DNA from: Candidatus Marinacidobacterium sp.
GTDB taxonomy: Bacteria > Acidobacteriota > Vicinamibacteria > Marinacidobacterales > Marinacidobacteraceae
DNA length: 64,000 nucleotides
Direction: 5' to 3'
Assembly (NCBI GenBank): GCA_965220965.1
Contig: OZ244852.1
Span: 704,001 to 768,000 of the forward strand
The notes under the pieces are model-generated. The model saw only the letters and a list, made by a program, of their open reading frames with translations. It was not told where the DNA came from and did no database searches. Position numbers and translations under genes: made by a program. This document shows, one piece after another, positions 11,025 to 29,592 of the stretch (position 1 is the first letter of the stretch; each line of letters opens with the position of its first letter).

Positions 11025-12034
11025 CCGCCGAGGATCGGCTCCTCCGGGAGATCCTGGAGCGTCTGCCGGCGACGCCGCCCGGAGCGGAGGATGCGCCGCG
11101 CATCGTGGTCGGCCCCGGGGACGACGCGGCTGTCGTCCGCGCCGGAGGCGACGCCCGGGCGCCGTTGCTGCTGACCGTCGACGCCGCCGAGGAAGGCGTC
11201 CACTTCGACCGGAAGCTCCATCCCCCCGCCGCGATCGGCCGCCGGACGGTGGCGGCCGCCGTCAGCGACATCGCGGCCATGGGAGGGGCGCCGGTGGCGG
11301 CGCTCGCCTCGCTGGTGGTTCCCCGGGACGCGCGCCAGACCGCCCGGGAGGTCATGCGGGCGGCCGGGGAGCGCGCGGCGGAACTGGGAGCGCCGGTCGT
11401 GGGAGGAAACCTGAGTTCGGGGGCGCGGCTGGCGCTTCACGTGACGGTCGTGGGGACGGCGCCGGCGGGAGCGCCTCCGGTGCGTCGCCGCGGCGCCCGC
11501 CCGGGCGATGCGCTCTTCGTCAGCGGGCCCCTTGGGGGGGCTGCGCTTGGCCTCGAGGCGCTTCGTCGCCGGGCGGCCGGCGAGGCCCCGGGACGGCGAC
11601 TCAGCGGCCGGGAGGCCGCCTGGGTGGACGCCCATCTGGATCCTCAGCCGCGGCTCGCGCTCGGGGCCGAACTGGCCGGCCTCGCGACCGCCGGCATGGA
11701 CCTGTCCGACGGGCTGGCCCTCGATCTCCACCGTCTCCTCGAGGCCGCTTCGTGCGGGGGTGTCGTGGAGGCGGCGCGGATCCCCGCCGCCGGTCCGGGG
11801 CCGGACGGTCTGGAGGCGGCCCTGTTCGGCGGCGAGGACTACGAGCTGCTGTTCGCCGGCCCCGCCGGGGCGGTGGAGGCCCGGGCGGTCTCCGGCGGTC
11901 GGCCGTGGGCGGGAGTCACCCGGATCGGCGAGGTGACGTCCGGGTCCGGCGTGCGCCTCCGGTCGCCCGACGGCGGTCTGGCGCCGCTCGCCCGCCGGGG
12001 GTGGGACGCTCTGGAGGCCGGCGGCGACGCCTGA
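11021..12034 (+). CDS. thiL: Thiamine-monophosphate kinase
   Basis: GPGDDAA, EGVHF, SDIAAMGG, VVGGN, MDLSDGL, GGEDYELLF; TTG start overlaps the zapA stop. Confidence 0.92.
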   Translation: MTAEDRLLREILERLPATPPGAEDAPRIVVGPGDDAAVVRAGGDARAPLLLTVDAAEEGVHFDRKLHPPAAIGRRTVAAAVSDIAAMGGAPVAALASLVVPRDARQTAREVMRAAGERAAELGAPVVGGNLSSGARLALHVTVVGTAPAGAPPVRRRGARPGDALFVSGPLGGAALGLEALRRRAAGEAPGRRLSGREAAWVDAHLDPQPRLALGAELAGLATAGMDLSDGLALDLHRLLEAASCGGVVEAARIPAAGPGPDGLEAALFGGEDYELLFAGPAGAVEARAVSGGRPWAGVTRIGEVTSGSGVRLRSPDGGLAPLARRGWDALEAGGDA

Positions 12035-27015: not shown

Positions 27016-27738
27016 ATGACGCCCGTCACCCCGGCGCTGTTCGACTTCCTGCGCGATCTGGCGGCGAACAACGAGCGGGCCTGGTTCCAGGCGAACCGGG
27101 ACCGTTACGAGGCGGATGTCGTCCGCCCGATGCTCGATTTCGTGGCGGCCTTCGCCGCGCCGCTGGCCGAGATCAGCCCCCACTTCCGCGCTGACCCGAG
27201 GCGGAATGGCGGGTCCATGTTCCGGATCCACCGGGACGTGCGCTTCGCCCGGGACAAGTCGCCCTACAAGACGAATGTCGGGGCGCAGTTCCGCCATGCG
27301 ATGGGGAAGGATGTCCACGCCCCCGCCTTCTACCTCCATCTGGCGCCCGGCGAGTGCTTCGCCGCCGCGGGCGTCTGGCGGCCCGACTCCGGCGCCTTGG
27401 GGCGGATCCGCGACGCCCTGGTGGAACGACCGGCGACCTGGACGCGTATCGTCAGCGCCCCGGCGTTCCGGAGCACGCTGCGGCTGGCGGGCGAGTCCCT
27501 GAAGCGCGCTCCGAGGGGATACGACCCGGCGCACCCGCTCGTTTCCGACCTGAAGCGCAAGGACTTCGTGGCGGTCGCCGATCTTCTGGAGGAGGATGTC
27601 GTGCGGAGCGGCTTCCTCGAGGAGTTCGCCCGGATCGCCCGCGCCGCCGCTCCATTCATGGCGTTCCTCTGCCAGGCGATCGGCGTCCCGTTCGGGTCCG
27701 ATGACCCGCCGCCCACGGGCGCCGAGGTCGACTGCTAG
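27016..27738 (+). CDS. DUF2461 (TIGR02453)-like protein
   Basis: FLRDLAANNERAWF, FRIHRDVRFARDKSPYK, LKRAPRGY, LKRK. Confidence 0.85.
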   Translation: MTPVTPALFDFLRDLAANNERAWFQANRDRYEADVVRPMLDFVAAFAAPLAEISPHFRADPRRNGGSMFRIHRDVRFARDKSPYKTNVGAQFRHAMGKDVHAPAFYLHLAPGECFAAAGVWRPDSGALGRIRDALVERPATWTRIVSAPAFRSTLRLAGESLKRAPRGYDPAHPLVSDLKRKDFVAVADLLEEDVVRSGFLEEFARIARAAAPFMAFLCQAIGVPFGSDDPPPTGAEVDC

Positions 27739-27752
27739 AATCCGCGCCGCTC

Positions 27753-28025
27753 ATGTCGCGCACCTGCCCGCTGACCGGAAAGCGTCCCCTCGCGGGGAAC
27801 TCGATCAGCCACGCCCACAACAAGAACCGGCGGCGCCAGCTTCCCAACCTGCAGTGGAAGTCGGTGTGGGTTCCGGAGCTGGGGCGCACCGTCCGGCTTC
27901 GGCTGAGCACGCGCGCGCTGCGCACCATCGACAAGAAGGGTCTCGTTCCGTACCTGCGGGGCGAGGGGCTGCGGCTGAAGGATGTCCTTCCTCCCCGCGC
28001 CCACGCCCGCAACGTCTCCATCTGA
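27753..28025 (+). CDS. rpmB: 50S ribosomal protein L28
   Basis: MSRTCPLTGK...GNSISHAHNKNRRRQLPNLQ...LSTRALRTIDK. Confidence 0.95.
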   Translation: MSRTCPLTGKRPLAGNSISHAHNKNRRRQLPNLQWKSVWVPELGRTVRLRLSTRALRTIDKKGLVPYLRGEGLRLKDVLPPRAHARNVSI

Positions 28026-28096
28026 GCGCCGCCTCGCGCCTGGCCGCGGGACCCCGCGAACCGCCGGGTTCGAGCGGCCGGGAACCAGGCCTCCGC

Positions 28097-28105
28097 TGGT
28101 ATCCT
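28097..28105 (+). promoter_or_regulatory. Putative extended -10 promoter (TGG-TATCCT), 7 nt before ATG 28113; possibly leaderless
   Basis: TGnTAnnnT pattern and no SD between it and the start codon. Confidence 0.4.
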
Positions 28106-28112
28106 TGAATCG

Positions 28113-28469
28113 ATGAGTCTTGTCGGCCGGGCTCTCGGAACCGCCGCGCCGTTCGTCCCCGCCAGAGAGATCGACGAGGTCCTCGCGGACCCGAAGGTGC
28201 TGCTCCTCGATGTGCGCACCGCACGCGAGCTGCACGAGGCGGGCACGATTCCCGGCGCGGTGCACGTTCATCTGGGTGAGCTCGCGGACCGGCTCGAGGA
28301 GCTGCCGCGCGACCGCCCGGTCCTGACCACCTGAATGGTGGGACCCCGGGCTGCGCGGGCCGCAGCCATCCTGGAACGCGCCGGGTTCGAGGTCGTCGGA
28401 TTCTCCGGCCTGGTCAAGTACACCGGTGAGCGCGAGTACCGCGCGATGGAAAACGAAGGAGGTTCGTGA
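28113..28469 (+). CDS. Rhodanese-like sulfurtransferase, predicted selenoprotein (TGA 28332-28334 = Sec74), 118 aa
   Basis: LLDVRT, TIPGAVHV, then PVLTT-[TGA]-MVGPRAARAAAILERAGFEVVGFSGL; the rhodanese fold continues past the TGA to a stop at 28467-28469 that overlaps the next ATG. Confidence 0.85.
28349..28367 (+). promoter_or_regulatory. Candidate bacterial SECIS hairpin of rhodanese 1
   Basis: GGCTGCG-CGGGC-CGCAGCC: perfect 7-bp stem, 5-nt loop starting 22 nt after the UGA, G at loop position 2. Confidence 0.65.
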
Positions 28470-28912
28470 TGGAACAACGCGGAACACGGGTCGGGCTCGT
28501 TCCGATCACCGCCATGCTCGCCGGGCTGGCGCTCGGGGCGTGCGGAACCGGGGGCGGCGAGACCGCCGGCGGCGAGAGCGCCGGCGGGAGCGCGGAGCCT
28601 GCCGAGGCGGCGCCCCGGGTGGAGGCCGCCGACATCGACGCGGCGCTCGCGAACGGAGCGCTCCTGCTCGACGTGCGCACTTCCGAGGAACTCGCGGAGC
28701 ACGGCACGATCGACGGCTTCGTCCACATCCCGATCGACGAACTGGAGGCGAGGATCGGTGAACTCCCCACGGGAGTTCCCATCCTCACTGCTTGACAGGG
28801 TGGCGGAAGAGCCGCGCGTGCCGCGGAGCTGCTCACTGCGAATGGATACGAGGTCGTGGGTTTCTGCGGTCTCCGTGACTACGAGGGCGAGAGGGTCTAT
28901 CCGGGAAGCTGA
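28469..28912 (+). CDS. Lipoprotein rhodanese-like sulfurtransferase, predicted selenoprotein (TGA 28793-28795 = Sec109), 147 aa
   Basis: SD GAAGGAGG; lipobox LALGAC; LLDVRT; PILTA-[TGA]-QGGGRAARAAELLTANGYEVVGFCGLRDYEGERVYPGS; paralog of the upstream gene on both sides of the TGA. Confidence 0.87.
28812..28826 (+). promoter_or_regulatory. Candidate bacterial SECIS hairpin of rhodanese 2
   Basis: CCGCG-CGTGC-CGCGG: 5-bp stem, loop starting 22 nt after the UGA; same geometry as the first hairpin. Confidence 0.6.
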
Positions 28913-28962
28913 CCGGACGGACTGAACCGGGACACCCGCCCCGGGCCTCGGGCCTGAGGCAC

Positions 28963-28991
28963 ACCGCTCCCGCCTTCGGGAGCGGTTTGTT
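28963..28991 (+). terminator. Probable intrinsic terminator after the rhodanese pair
   Basis: ACCGCTCCCG-CCTT-CGGGAGCGGT followed by TTGTT. Confidence 0.6.
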
Positions 28992-29112
28992 CGGGCCGGC
29001 TTCGAGAAGTTCGCCGGACACGCGATCGCCGGGCTTCTGTGACCCTGGCGATCCCGCGGGTAGCGTCCCGGGTTCACCGAACGCGCGGAATCCGTTGACC
29101 CGAGGCCACGAG

Positions 29113-29592
29113 ATGAAGACCTTCGGCGGCTTCCAGCGTCGCTTTGTTCGTTTTCTGGAACGGGCGACCGATGTCAGCAGCTTTACCGAACTGGCTACCA
29201 CCGAGCGGGCGTCCGCCGGTGTTTCGCACCGGTTGGACTACCTCAGGCAGAGCGACCCCTGCGACGCCGACTGGGTGGTCTTCCAGAGGGCTCCTGACGG
29301 CGAAGAAGTGCGCTGGATCGTGGTGACAAGAAAGAGCGACTGTCTCGAAGACAAAGACGACGACGCTCTCCATGACTGGTGTCGCCAGGCCAGGCGGGTC
29401 ACGGCGGAGGAGTGGCGTTTCACTCGGATCAACAAGATCGACTTCGATGCGGTCGAGGCGCAAGCGGAGACGTTCGGCGACCTCTTCGCGCATTGCTGGA
29501 TGCGGGAAGCGCGCCGCCTCCGGGAGGAACTCGGGATCGCCCCGATGACGCACGAGGAGATCAGGGCGGCCATCGAGGAGGGGAGAGAGTGA
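29113..29592 (+). CDS. Hypothetical protein: degenerate type III restriction Res C-terminal-like domain with an antitoxin-like tail
   Basis: FQRRFVRFLERATDV...LDYL...ADWVVFQ...WIVVTRK...DWCRQ...WRFTRIN recalls the Res nuclease region; tail MTHEEIRAAIEEGRE. Confidence 0.45.
   Translation: MKTFGGFQRRFVRFLERATDVSSFTELATTERASAGVSHRLDYLRQSDPCDADWVVFQRAPDGEEVRWIVVTRKSDCLEDKDDDALHDWCRQARRVTAEEWRFTRINKIDFDAVEAQAETFGDLFAHCWMREARRLREELGIAPMTHEEIRAAIEEGRE

What the first reader, a model, noticed from the sequence alone, without database searches (positions are those of the whole stretch)
28113..28912. Hidden tandem selenoprotein operon: two rhodaneses with UGA at the catalytic residue
Seen: both ORFs appear truncated (73 and 109 aa in the track), but each TGA (28332, 28793) falls where the rhodanese active-site Cys belongs. 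The frames continue as U-MVGPRAARAAAILERAGFEVVGFSGL and U-QGGGRAARAAELLTANGYEVVGFCGL, matching the C-x-x-G-x-R-x-x-x-A-x-x-L-x-x-x-G-F/Y pattern. The two diverged paralogs stay similar on both sides of the TGA. Read-through of gene 1 ends in a TGATG overlap with the start of gene 2, and a terminator follows gene 2. Two independent nonsense mutations at the same catalytic codon are unlikely, and TGA is a normal stop elsewhere here, so this is not a code change. Established: Sec is UGA-encoded and replaces catalytic Cys; Sec-rhodaneses have been predicted computationally. Inference: a two-gene Sec-dependent sulfur/selenium transfer module that standard annotation would miss.
Basis: partly seen in the sequence, partly recalled or inferred. 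Interest (0 to 1): 0.92.

Follow-up and report, generated by a model that had tools for sequence, protein, structure and literature searches.

The report
Two tandem selenocysteine rhodanese genes
Two neighbouring small sulfur-transfer (rhodanese) genes each carry a UGA "stop" that is almost certainly read as selenocysteine at the catalytic site; gene callers cut them short, but this type of selenoprotein has been predicted before.

Summary
Gene 1 (28113-28469, 118 aa) and gene 2 (28469-28912, 147 aa) are single-domain rhodaneses. Each has an in-frame TGA (28332, 28793) at the catalytic-Cys position.

- **Sec machinery:** the genome has selA, selB, selD and tRNA-Sec.
- **Conservation:** both TGAs are kept in 20 of 20 related loci. 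In those loci the true stop codons vary among TGA, TAG and TAA.
- **SECIS:** a 17-nt hairpin lies 21 nt after each UGA and meets the published bacterial SECIS consensus. Its synonymous sites are frozen, and it shows two compensatory changes.
- **Cys homologues:** these exist but are rare.
- **Annotation:** public protein sets hold almost only ~100-aa fragments that end at the TGA.

New details: gene 2 is a predicted lipoprotein of a type widespread in Acidobacteriota. Gene 1 is a cytoplasmic paralogue, and a tree places it as a probable local tandem duplicate. I found no conserved neighbouring genes.

Sec-containing rhodanese-related sulfurtransferases with a UxxG motif have been predicted since 2005. 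This is therefore a new member of a known kind. It is real and mis-annotated, but not a new principle. Function is inferred, not shown: persulfide or selenium transfer through a Se-S intermediate.

The parts
28113..28469 (+). Gene 1: a 118-aa single-domain rhodanese with Sec at residue 74. It has no signal peptide, so it is predicted to be cytoplasmic. The range includes the TGA stop at 28467-28469.
   Evidence: PF00581, E 5.4e-13. Orthologues carrying the same TGA occur in 20 of 20 loci.
28332..28334 (+). Sec codon of gene 1 (UGA, residue U74). It is the first residue of the active-site loop U-M-V-G-P-R.
   Evidence: TGA is present in 20 of 20 orthologues. It aligns with Cys in homologues.
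28349..28367 (+). Predicted bacterial SECIS hairpin of gene 1. It has a 7-bp stem (28349-28355 with 28361-28367) and a 5-nt loop CGGGC (28356-28360). The loop starts 21 nt after the UGA.
   Evidence: -13.1 kcal/mol. Searches give conservation, including the U-A compensatory pair in this genome. The criteria are those quoted from PMC13188914.
28458..28462 (+). GGAGG ribosome-binding site for gene 2, 6 nt before the ATG at 28469. The gene 1 stop and the gene 2 start overlap as TGATG.
   Evidence: Read directly from the sequence.
28469..28912 (+). Gene 2: a 147-aa precursor of a single-domain rhodanese with Sec at residue 109. It is a predicted lipoprotein. The range includes the TGA stop at 28910-28912.
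   Evidence: PF00581, E 5.7e-10. The model has pLDDT about 97 for residues 50-147. The fold matches rhodanese domains.
28469..28543 (+). Lipoprotein signal peptide ending in the lipobox L-G-A-C. Cys25, the predicted lipidated first residue of the mature protein, is at 28541-28543.
   Evidence: Sequence. An N-terminal hydrophobic stretch ending in [A/G]-C is present in 27 of 28 gene-2-type sequences as extracted. The 28th (L042) has it upstream of an extra TGA. The lipobox rule is recalled; no signal-peptide program was run.
28793..28795 (+). Sec codon of gene 2 (UGA, residue U109). It is the first residue of the active-site loop U-Q-G-G-G-R.
   Evidence: TGA is present in 20 of 20 orthologues and in 30 of 31 close matches in the phylum sample.
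28808..28830 (+). Predicted bacterial SECIS hairpin of gene 2. The core is a 5-bp stem (28812-28816 with 28822-28826) with loop CGUGC (28817-28821). Two outer pairs join 28808-28809 with 28829-28830. The loop starts 21 nt after the UGA.
   Evidence: -10.1 kcal/mol. Codons +1 to +11 after the UGA are almost invariant at synonymous sites in 20 orthologues.
28865..28867 (+). Second conserved Cys (C133, motif GFCGL) in the exported form. The matching residue in gene 1 is Ser (GFSGL).
   Evidence: It is Cys in every gene-2-type sequence read. In gene 1 orthologues it is Ser in 18 of 20 and Cys in 2 of 20.
28963..28991 (+). Terminator-like hairpin (10-bp stem, 4-nt loop) followed by UUUGUU.
   Evidence: -31.8 kcal/mol for 28950-28996, z -4.4. 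The consensus scan did not list it.

Best explanation
These are two genuine, adjacent selenoprotein genes. Both encode single-domain rhodaneses in which the catalytic cysteine is replaced by selenocysteine.

**How the UGA is read (inferred from the evidence below).** During translation each in-frame UGA is read by Sec-tRNA(Sec). SelB delivers that tRNA after binding a short hairpin of consensus GCCGCGCGUGCCGCGGC. The hairpin lies inside the coding sequence, is encoded by the peptide R-A-A-R-A-A, and its loop starts 21 nt after the UGA.

**The two products.**
- Gene 1 gives a 118-aa cytoplasmic enzyme.
- Gene 2 starts at an ATG that overlaps the gene 1 stop. It gives a 147-aa precursor that is exported and lipid-anchored at Cys25.

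**Evolution.**
- The lipoprotein form is the older and more widespread one in Acidobacteriota.
- The cytoplasmic form is probably a tandem duplicate that lost its signal peptide within one Vicinamibacteria family (sister relationship moderately supported).

**Function (inferred only).** The selenolate in the six-residue loop U-x-x-G-x-R would take sulfane sulfur, or selenium, from a persulfide or polysulfide donor as a Se-S (or Se-Se) intermediate and pass it to an acceptor. This is what the Cys-rhodanese domains of persulfide and CoA-disulfide reductases do.

Shown here: the genes, the conserved UGA, the machinery, the hairpin and its constraint, and the fold. Inferred: actual Sec insertion, lipidation, the substrate, and any link between the two proteins.
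For: **Sec machinery in the same genome.**
- selA: 421 bits.
- SelB winged-helix domain: 61 bits.
- selD: 252 bits against a cut-off of 125.
- tRNA-Sec with anticodon TCA.

**Conservation of the TGA.**
- 23 of 24 genomes of the same family hold both copies, each with an in-frame TGA. 6 of 16 genomes from two other families of the order hold the lipoprotein type with TGA.
- The active-site codon is TGA in 20 of 20 and 20 of 20 loci. The terminal stops vary: gene 1 has 19 TGA and 1 TAA; gene 2 has 8 TGA, 10 TAG and 2 TAA. TGA is therefore an ordinary stop in these genomes.
- In a sample of 300 other genomes of the phylum, 28 have a close homologue and 27 of those carry TGA. 26 of these 27 also have selA; the exception is 69% complete.
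- In metagenome contigs, 53 sites carry TGA and 5 carry a Cys codon.

**Coding constraint after the TGA.** Downstream residues are nearly invariant while their codons vary synonymously.

**Hairpin.**
- It meets all four bSECIS criteria quoted from PMC13188914: a stem of 5-7 bp, a 5-nt loop with G at position 2 followed by G or U, 21-nt spacing, and -13.1 or -10.1 kcal/mol.
- In 49 aligned sites the five core pairs are never broken. There are 2 double compensatory changes (C-G to U-A, G-C to A-U) and 3 G-U changes. 0 of 500 shuffles reach this.
- Synonymous-codon entropy in codons +1 to +11 is 0.03 against 0.89 elsewhere in gene 2 (p 3.7e-5), and 0.82 against 1.19 in gene 1 (p 0.013).
- Two Cys-form relatives with the same RAARAA peptide each carry a synonymous change that breaks a stem pair.
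- Distant Sec forms with other peptide sequences still fold a hairpin with a GU-containing loop 18-22 nt after the UGA.

**Fold and relatives.**
- AlphaFold model with pLDDT about 97 for the domain.
- The best solved matches are rhodanese domains of CoADR-RHD (3ict, rmsd 1.2 A over 93 columns, 38% identity), persulfide reductase (3nta, 4ocg) and persulfide dioxygenase-rhodanese (5ve3).

**Duplication.** The gene 1 clade (support 100/99) is sister to the gene 2 clade of the same family (98/95). The joint node has support 92/76 and sits inside the lipoprotein-type sequences.
Against: - **No expression or protein data.** No RNA run was listed, and nothing shows that selenium is incorporated.
- **Hairpin stability is unremarkable.** In this G+C-rich sequence the hairpins are no more stable than shuffled sequence. 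z is +1.3 and +1.8 for 69-nt windows, and -0.9 and -0.03 for 27-nt windows.
- **Little covariation.** Three of six stem pairs never vary, so the covariation signal rests on a few sequences.
- **Confounded constraint.** The RAARAA peptide is also conserved in Cys forms, so part of the nucleotide conservation could be protein-level constraint.
- **No curated RNA match.** No Rfam family matched the region.
- **No genomic context for function.** No neighbouring gene is conserved, so there is no context support for a substrate.
- **Lipoprotein call is weak.** It rests on reading the sequence against a recalled rule.
- **Non-independent genomes.** Related genomes are not independent, so the counts overstate the number of independent observations.
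Confidence: 0.9

Rival explanations
1. The UGAs are real stops. The locus then encodes short N-terminal fragments or decaying pseudogenes, and the apparent downstream frames are leftovers.
For: Gene callers annotate it this way: 114 of the 120 listed database relatives are 89-111 aa. In gene 1 an ATG directly follows the TGA, so a separate 44-aa ORF exists at 28335..28469.
Against: The downstream halves are conserved at protein level, with synonymous variation, in 20 of 20 loci for both genes. The same holds across the phylum. The rhodanese domain is complete only when read through. TGA is never replaced by TAA or TAG at this codon in 40 of 40 sites, whereas the terminal stops are interchangeable. 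Gene 2 has no start codon after its TGA.
Confidence: 0.02
2. The UGA is read through, but not as selenocysteine. It could be read by near-cognate tRNA as Trp, Cys or Arg, or under a changed genetic code.
For: No direct evidence for selenium was obtained. UGA is the leakiest stop codon (general knowledge, recalled).
Against: TGA serves as the normal terminator of these same genes and alternates with TAG and TAA in orthologues. That excludes a code change. The position is the catalytic Cys column. The full Sec machinery is present and co-occurs with the TGA form in 26 of 27 genomes. A SECIS-like hairpin under synonymous constraint sits at the expected distance.
Confidence: 0.04
3. Sec is inserted, but the 17-nt hairpin named here is not the SECIS. 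On this view it is a by-product of coding R-A-A-R-A-A with G+C-rich codons, and the real signal lies elsewhere or is larger.
For: The hairpins are not more stable than shuffles. Most stem pairs are invariant. The peptide motif is also conserved in Cys forms. In gene 2 the frozen synonymous sites run from codon +1 to +11, which is wider than the core hairpin.
Against: There are two independent compensatory double changes and no broken core pair in 49 sites. Both Cys forms with the same peptide have a mismatch caused by a synonymous change (only n = 2). Distant Sec forms with a different peptide (RSSRAA, RASRAA) still form a hairpin with a GU-containing loop at the same distance. All four published consensus criteria are met.
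Confidence: 0.1

Closest known systems
Predicted Sec-containing rhodanese-related sulfurtransferases. [quoted passage not shown] They were first reported in Sargasso Sea, GOS and Olavius symbiont data (PMC1088965, PMC2398784, PMC1976440).
   Same: PF00581 domain, Sec at the catalytic-Cys position, a UxxG motif (UMVG and UQGG here), an in-frame bSECIS, Cys homologues, and no experimental characterisation.
   Different: I could not fetch the reference accessions, so I cannot say which published form these belong to. The passages I read do not mention three features seen here: the lipoprotein signal, the tandem pair of a cytoplasmic and an exported form, or the occurrence in Acidobacteriota. Supplements were not available.
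Rhodanese domains of CoA-disulfide reductase-RHD (3icr, 3ict), NADH-dependent persulfide reductase Npsr (3nta, 4ocg) and persulfide dioxygenase-rhodanese fusion PRF (5ve3).
   Same: These are the best sequence and structure matches (profile E 1.4e-19 to 1e-14; rmsd 1.2-2.5 A and 34-40% identity). The catalytic loop has the same length and begins C-Q-x-G-x-R. They handle persulfide or polysulfide sulfur.
   Different: Those are Cys enzymes fused to flavoprotein or dioxygenase domains. The proteins here stand alone, use Sec, and have no conserved partner gene nearby.
Small stand-alone rhodaneses GlpE (cytoplasmic) and PspE (periplasmic) of E. coli (1gmx, 2jtq).
   Same: Single-domain architecture, and one cytoplasmic plus one exported member in the same organism. 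Both match weakly by profile (E 9.7e-6 and 1.2e-6).
   Different: GlpE and PspE are Cys enzymes, are not adjacent genes, and PspE is soluble rather than lipid-anchored (recalled). NCBIfam scores for the GlpE and PspE models are far below their cut-offs.

Membership tests
Bacterial selenoprotein gene (UGA recoded by SelB and SECIS) | In-frame UGA at a position where homologues have Cys | tested here: met
   Alignments A2 and A3. Cys codons TGC or TGT occur at the same column in L077, L106, L059 and L062.
Bacterial selenoprotein gene (UGA recoded by SelB and SECIS) | Protein-level conservation continues downstream of the UGA | tested here: met
   20 of 20 orthologues for each gene have near-invariant residues with varying synonymous codons. 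The Pfam match spans the UGA.
Bacterial selenoprotein gene (UGA recoded by SelB and SECIS) | bSECIS stem-loop: 3-9 nt loop, 4-16 bp stem, G in the first two loop positions, 16-37 nt from the UGA, MFE <= -7.5 kcal/mol (criteria quoted from PMC13188914) | tested here: met
   Gene 1: 7 bp, loop CGGGC, 21 nt, -13.1 kcal/mol. Gene 2: 5 bp, loop CGUGC, 21 nt, -10.1 kcal/mol. Criteria text is, conservation.
Bacterial selenoprotein gene (UGA recoded by SelB and SECIS) | selA, selB, selC and selD in the genome | tested here: met
Bacterial selenoprotein gene (UGA recoded by SelB and SECIS) | Selenium actually incorporated in the protein | not testable with these tools
   Needs 75Se labelling or mass spectrometry.
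Rhodanese homology domain, catalytic sulfurtransferase type | PF00581 match above the gathering score | tested here: met
   49.7 and 40.0 bits against a cut-off of 22.2.
Rhodanese homology domain, catalytic sulfurtransferase type | Rhodanese alpha/beta fold with the catalytic residue at the end of the central strand | tested here: met
   In the model the strand at 105-109 ends at U109 and a helix at 113-124 follows. Foldseek probability is 1.00 to many rhodanese domains.
Rhodanese homology domain, catalytic sulfurtransferase type | Six-residue active-site loop (C-X4-R/T) rather than the seven-residue C-X5-R of Cdc25 or arsenate-reductase types (criterion recalled) | tested here: met
   The loops read U-M-V-G-P-R and U-Q-G-G-G-R. 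Two metagenomic Cys relatives (L059, L062) have a longer loop, C-x-T-G-T-G-R.
Rhodanese homology domain, catalytic sulfurtransferase type | Sulfur-transfer activity | not testable with these tools
   Needs an enzyme assay.
Rhodanese-like selenoprotein form 2 / form 4 (UxxG) of PMC13188914 | UxxG motif in a PF00581 protein | tested here: met
   UMVG and UQGG. The table rows were read.
Rhodanese-like selenoprotein form 2 / form 4 (UxxG) of PMC13188914 | Sequence relationship to the reference accessions given in the review | not testable with these tools
NF041203 rhodanese_LYCAU (CxU form 3) | Score above the curated cut-off, and a CxU motif | tested here: not met
   Gene 1 scores 25.8 bits against a cut-off of 115. 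Gene 2 has no hit. The motif here is T-T-U and T-A-U, not C-x-U.
Bacterial lipoprotein (gene 2 only) | N-terminal signal peptide ending in a lipobox with an invariant Cys (rule recalled) | tested here: met
   ...LALGAC25 in the window. An equivalent [A/G]-C after a hydrophobic stretch occurs in the gene-2-type sequences. No predictor was run.
Bacterial lipoprotein (gene 2 only) | Lipid modification and signal peptidase II cleavage | not testable with these tools
   Needs experiment.

The most novel reading that the evidence does not exclude
The exported lipoprotein form may not be a plain sulfurtransferase. It could be a periplasmic redox enzyme that cycles through a selenenyl-sulfide bond between U109 and the second Cys, C133 (motif GFCGL). 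That Cys is conserved in every exported form I read, whether Sec or Cys, and is replaced by Ser in 18 of 20 cytoplasmic paralogues. On this reading the pair would give soil Acidobacteriota a compartment-split, selenium-dependent system for handling reactive sulfur or selenium species, such as polysulfide or selenite, on both sides of the inner membrane. I could not measure the distance between the two residues in the model.
Probability: 0.12. Interest if true: 0.55.

Novelty: new member of a known kind. Interest (0 to 1): 0.35.

Why it matters
- **Annotation.** The finding corrects a systematic error. A family that is common in soil Acidobacteriota is stored in public protein sets almost only as ~100-aa 'hypothetical protein' fragments.
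- **Selenium in soil bacteria.** It adds two selenoproteins to the selenoproteome of a poorly studied, abundant soil phylum. One is a predicted exported lipoprotein. It suggests that these bacteria need selenium for part of their sulfur handling.
- **A natural comparison.** The near-exclusive use of Sec over Cys (53 TGA against 5 Cys codons in metagenome contigs; 30 of 31 close matches in the phylum sample) is notable for a rhodanese. It offers a natural Sec/Cys contrast for asking what selenium contributes to persulfide transfer.
- **Limits.** It does not reveal a new mechanism or a new kind of system.

Tried and rejected
- **Single-sequence folding.** Folding 69 nt after each UGA gave structures no better than shuffles. 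I therefore turned to comparative evidence.
- **Rfam.** A scan of 27700-29300 at E <= 10 gave only two chance hits and no SECIS family.
- **Terminator scan.** The consensus scan did not list the hairpin after gene 2, although folding supports one.
- **Conserved neighbours.** rpmB and the M14 peptidase lie upstream in only 7 of 20 family loci. Across 14 wider loci plus the window, the only recurring neighbour was a MacB/FtsX-type permease in 3 loci. I take this as chance, because I recall such permeases being very numerous in this phylum. No functional partner was found.
- **Other NCBIfam models.** Selenoprotein-specific models did not fit. NF041203 was far below its cut-off.
- **Expression.** No RNA holder was listed. 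The laid runs were contigs only.
- **G155 as a control.** G155 was the single 'no stop' hit, and I meant to use it as a Cys-form control for the hairpin. It turned out to be a more distant cytoplasmic rhodanese without the RAARAA motif, so it could not serve. The metagenome scan then supplied two usable Cys forms, which is a small number.
- **Papers.** Supplements were not available. They may list Acidobacteria Sec-rhodaneses that I could not see. PMC11237513 was seen only in a search listing.
- **Tree.** The tree used 59 extracted rows, 57 of them distinct. My script dropped, without listing them, sequences with fewer than 58 residues before the Sec codon or with an extra stop (for example L042). 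The tree has few columns, and many forks are unresolved.
- **Unpublished genomes.** The tallies include genomes flagged as unpublished: G033, G089, and G064 and G192. G089 is one of the 27 TGA holders.
Full report
**What is there**

Between rpmB (27753-28025, Ribosomal_L28) and a terminator-like hairpin lie two short genes on the + strand.
- Under the standard code they appear as ORFs of 73 aa (28113..28334) and 109 aa (28466..28795).
- Reading TGA as U gives 118 aa (28113-28466) and 147 aa (from the ATG at 28469 to 28909).
- Both read-through products match Pfam Rhodanese across the TGA (E 5.4e-13 and 5.7e-10).
- The TGAs lie at 28332-28334 (U74) and 28793-28795 (U109). Each opens a six-residue loop, U-M-V-G-P-R or U-Q-G-G-G-R, at the place where rhodaneses carry their catalytic Cys.
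- Gene 1's TGA stop (28467-28469) overlaps gene 2's ATG (28469-28471). A GGAGG sits 6 nt upstream of that ATG. The ATG is therefore a better start than the GTG at 28466.
- After gene 2, 28950-28996 folds into a strong hairpin followed by UUUGUU (-31.8 kcal/mol, z -4.4). The consensus terminator scan missed it.
- A contig from a second study matches 28050-28795 without a difference.

**Is the UGA read as selenocysteine?**

The genome is 3.25 Mb in 2 contigs and 94% complete. It holds all four parts of the machinery:
- selA (421 bits);
- a SelB C-terminal winged-helix domain (61 bits);
- selD (252 bits against a cut-off of 125);
- a tRNA-Sec with anticodon TCA.

Record titles of two close relatives name Acidobacteriota and Vicinamibacteria MAGs.

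Among 40 relatives, 23 of 24 genomes of the same family carry both genes in tandem, each with an in-frame TGA. The one without a match is 89% complete. In two other families of the order, 6 of 16 genomes carry one or two copies of the gene-2 type with TGA.

In the 20 loci I read in full, the active-site codon is TGA in 20 of 20 for each gene. The terminal stop is TGA 19 and TAA 1 for gene 1, and TGA 8, TAG 10 and TAA 2 for gene 2. TGA is thus an ordinary, exchangeable stop at gene ends and is fixed at the catalytic codon. That excludes both a code change and decay.

Residues after the TGA are nearly invariant while their codons vary.

**Wider distribution**

- In an even sample of 300 other genomes of the phylum, 28 hold a close homologue (E <= 1e-15). 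27 of them have a TGA.
- 26 of those 27 also have selA. The exception is 69% complete. selA itself is found in 236 of 301 genomes.
- The one hit without a stop (G155) is a more distant cytoplasmic rhodanese. Its genome shows no selA match.
- A metagenome scan returned 57 loci. I read 53 TGA sites and 5 Cys-codon sites (L059, L062, L077, L106, L110). Three loci held only fragments.
- Four of the metagenome loci contain the tandem pair.
- Related genomes are not independent, so these are counts, not statistics.

**The SECIS**

Both genes carry the same 17-nt hairpin. Its consensus is GCCGCGCGUGCCGCGGC, a 6-bp stem with a 5-nt loop, and it is encoded by the peptide A-A-R-A-A.

| | Stem | Loop | Energy |
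|---|---|---|---|
| Gene 1 | 28349-28355 with 28361-28367 | CGGGC | -13.1 kcal/mol |
| Gene 2 | 28812-28816 with 28822-28826 | CGUGC | -10.1 kcal/mol |

In both genes the loop starts 21 nt after the UGA. This satisfies the four constraints of the bacterial SECIS consensus quoted in the Fig. 2 legend of PMC13188914.

Evidence from single-sequence folding is weak. The energies are ordinary for this G+C-rich DNA, and Rfam has no match.

The comparative evidence is better.
- In 49 aligned sites (41 distinct) the five core pairs are never broken. Two sequences carry double compensatory changes: C-G to U-A in this very genome, and G-C to A-U in L022. Three carry G-U changes. None of 500 shuffles reach this.
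- Synonymous-codon entropy of four- and six-fold codons in positions +1 to +11 is 0.03 against 0.89 elsewhere for gene 2 (Mann-Whitney p 3.7e-5). For gene 1 it is 0.82 against 1.19 (p 0.013).
- The hairpin is letter-for-letter the same in most of the 53 metagenomic Sec sites, although their proteins fall to 43-50% identity.
- The two Cys forms that share the RAARAA peptide each have a synonymous change that breaks one stem pair. This is only n = 2.
- More distant Sec forms whose peptide differs (RSSRAA, RASRAA) form a different hairpin with a GU-containing loop 18-22 nt after the UGA.

I consider the SECIS assignment likely, not proven.

**What the proteins are**

- The model of gene 2 has pLDDT about 97 for residues 50-147. 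The catalytic residue sits at the end of the strand at 105-109, followed by a helix.
- By sequence profile and by fold, the nearest solved structures are the rhodanese domains of CoA-disulfide reductase-RHD, NADH-dependent persulfide reductase and persulfide dioxygenase-rhodanese fusions. These match at 34-40% identity and rmsd 1.2-2.5 A. All of them carry persulfide sulfur on the equivalent Cys.
- Gene 1 has no hydrophobic N-terminus.
- Gene 2 begins with a positively charged stretch, then a hydrophobic stretch, then L-G-A-C25 and a Gly-rich linker. The same arrangement occurs in the gene-2-type sequences from the order and phylum. I read this as a lipoprotein signal from a recalled rule; no predictor was run.
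- A second Cys (C133, GFCGL) is conserved in all exported forms I read, Sec or Cys. It is Ser in 18 of 20 gene 1 orthologues.
- The genome's only other rhodanese domains are a two-domain Cys protein at C1:578854-579651.

**Origin**

In a maximum-likelihood tree of 57 distinct domain sequences, gene 1 orthologues form one clade (support 100/99) on a long branch.
- That clade is sister to the gene 2 clade of the same family (98/95). The joint node has support 92/76.
- Both sit inside the lipoprotein-type sequences of other families.
- Cys forms are scattered among Sec forms.
- The simplest reading is a tandem duplication of the lipoprotein gene in this family, followed by loss of the signal peptide.
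- The tree has few columns, and its midpoint root is for drawing only.

**Context**

No neighbour is conserved.
- rpmB and an M14 peptidase lie upstream in 7 of 20 family loci.
- In 14 wider loci only a MacB/FtsX permease recurs, in 3 loci.

The unit is self-contained, and genomic context gives no clue to the substrate.

**Comparison with what is known**

Sec-containing rhodanese-related sulfurtransferases were predicted in several data sets:
- the Sargasso Sea data (3 genes; table read);
- GOS;
- Olavius symbionts (8 genes).

The reviews PMC9312934 and PMC13188914 list several forms. Two carry a UxxG motif, which these proteins share. All are marked there as predicted.

- The CxU form (NF041203) does not fit.
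- The passages I read do not mention a lipoprotein form, a tandem pair or Acidobacteria.
- A search for rhodanese + selenocysteine + Acidobacteria found two papers. Neither appears to describe this (for the first I saw only the matching passages, for the second only the listing).
- Supplements were not available.

**Verdict**

These are two real, systematically mis-annotated selenoprotein genes: 114 of 120 listed database relatives are 89-111 aa, and 8 of 8 fetched end at ...LTA. They belong to a known predicted kind, so the surprise for a specialist is modest.

The additions from this work are:
- the lipoprotein nature of the widespread form;
- the cytoplasmic duplicate;
- the strong preference for Sec over Cys;
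- the SECIS encoded by the RAARAA helix.

Sec insertion, lipidation, substrate and any cooperation between the two proteins remain inferred.

Noticed in passing
L042 (G036:C1:1896681-1897574): One of the two gene-2-type copies in this genome has an extra TGA in the signal peptide, where the other copies have Trp (MKRLYULPAA against MKRLYWLPAA). It may be a decaying duplicate, a sequencing error, or a shifted start.
   Followed up: no
L059 and L062 (metagenome contigs): These are Cys-form relatives with a longer active-site loop, C-x-T-G-T-G-R. That is seven residues, the length recalled for the phosphatase and arsenate-reductase type. They lack the RAARAA hairpin. They may be a functionally shifted subfamily.
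   Followed up: partly
window 28987-29592 (+): A 201-aa ORF directly after the terminator has no Pfam match. It has no counterpart in the other 19 family loci. It may be spurious or strain-specific.
   Followed up: no
window 11036-11548 (+) = G000:C1:715036-715548: A weak match to the selD model (79 bits against a cut-off of 125). It is probably another AIR-synthase-related (PurM, ThiL or HypE-like) protein, not a second selD.
   Followed up: no
G000:C1:578854-579651 (-), outside the window: The only other rhodanese domains in the genome form a two-domain protein without internal stops. The two single-domain rhodaneses of this genome are therefore both Sec forms.
   Followed up: no
phylum sample: selA is found in 236 of 301 sampled genomes of the phylum, so the Sec trait appears very common here. 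One family (f42) shows no selA in the members listed, and it holds the only close match without a stop (G155).
   Followed up: partly
window 28335-28469 (+): In gene 1 the codon right after the Sec-UGA is ATG in all 20 orthologues (U-M-V/I-G-P-R). If the UGA terminates, for example under selenium shortage, the C-terminal 44 aa could in principle be started separately. I did not test this.
   Followed up: no
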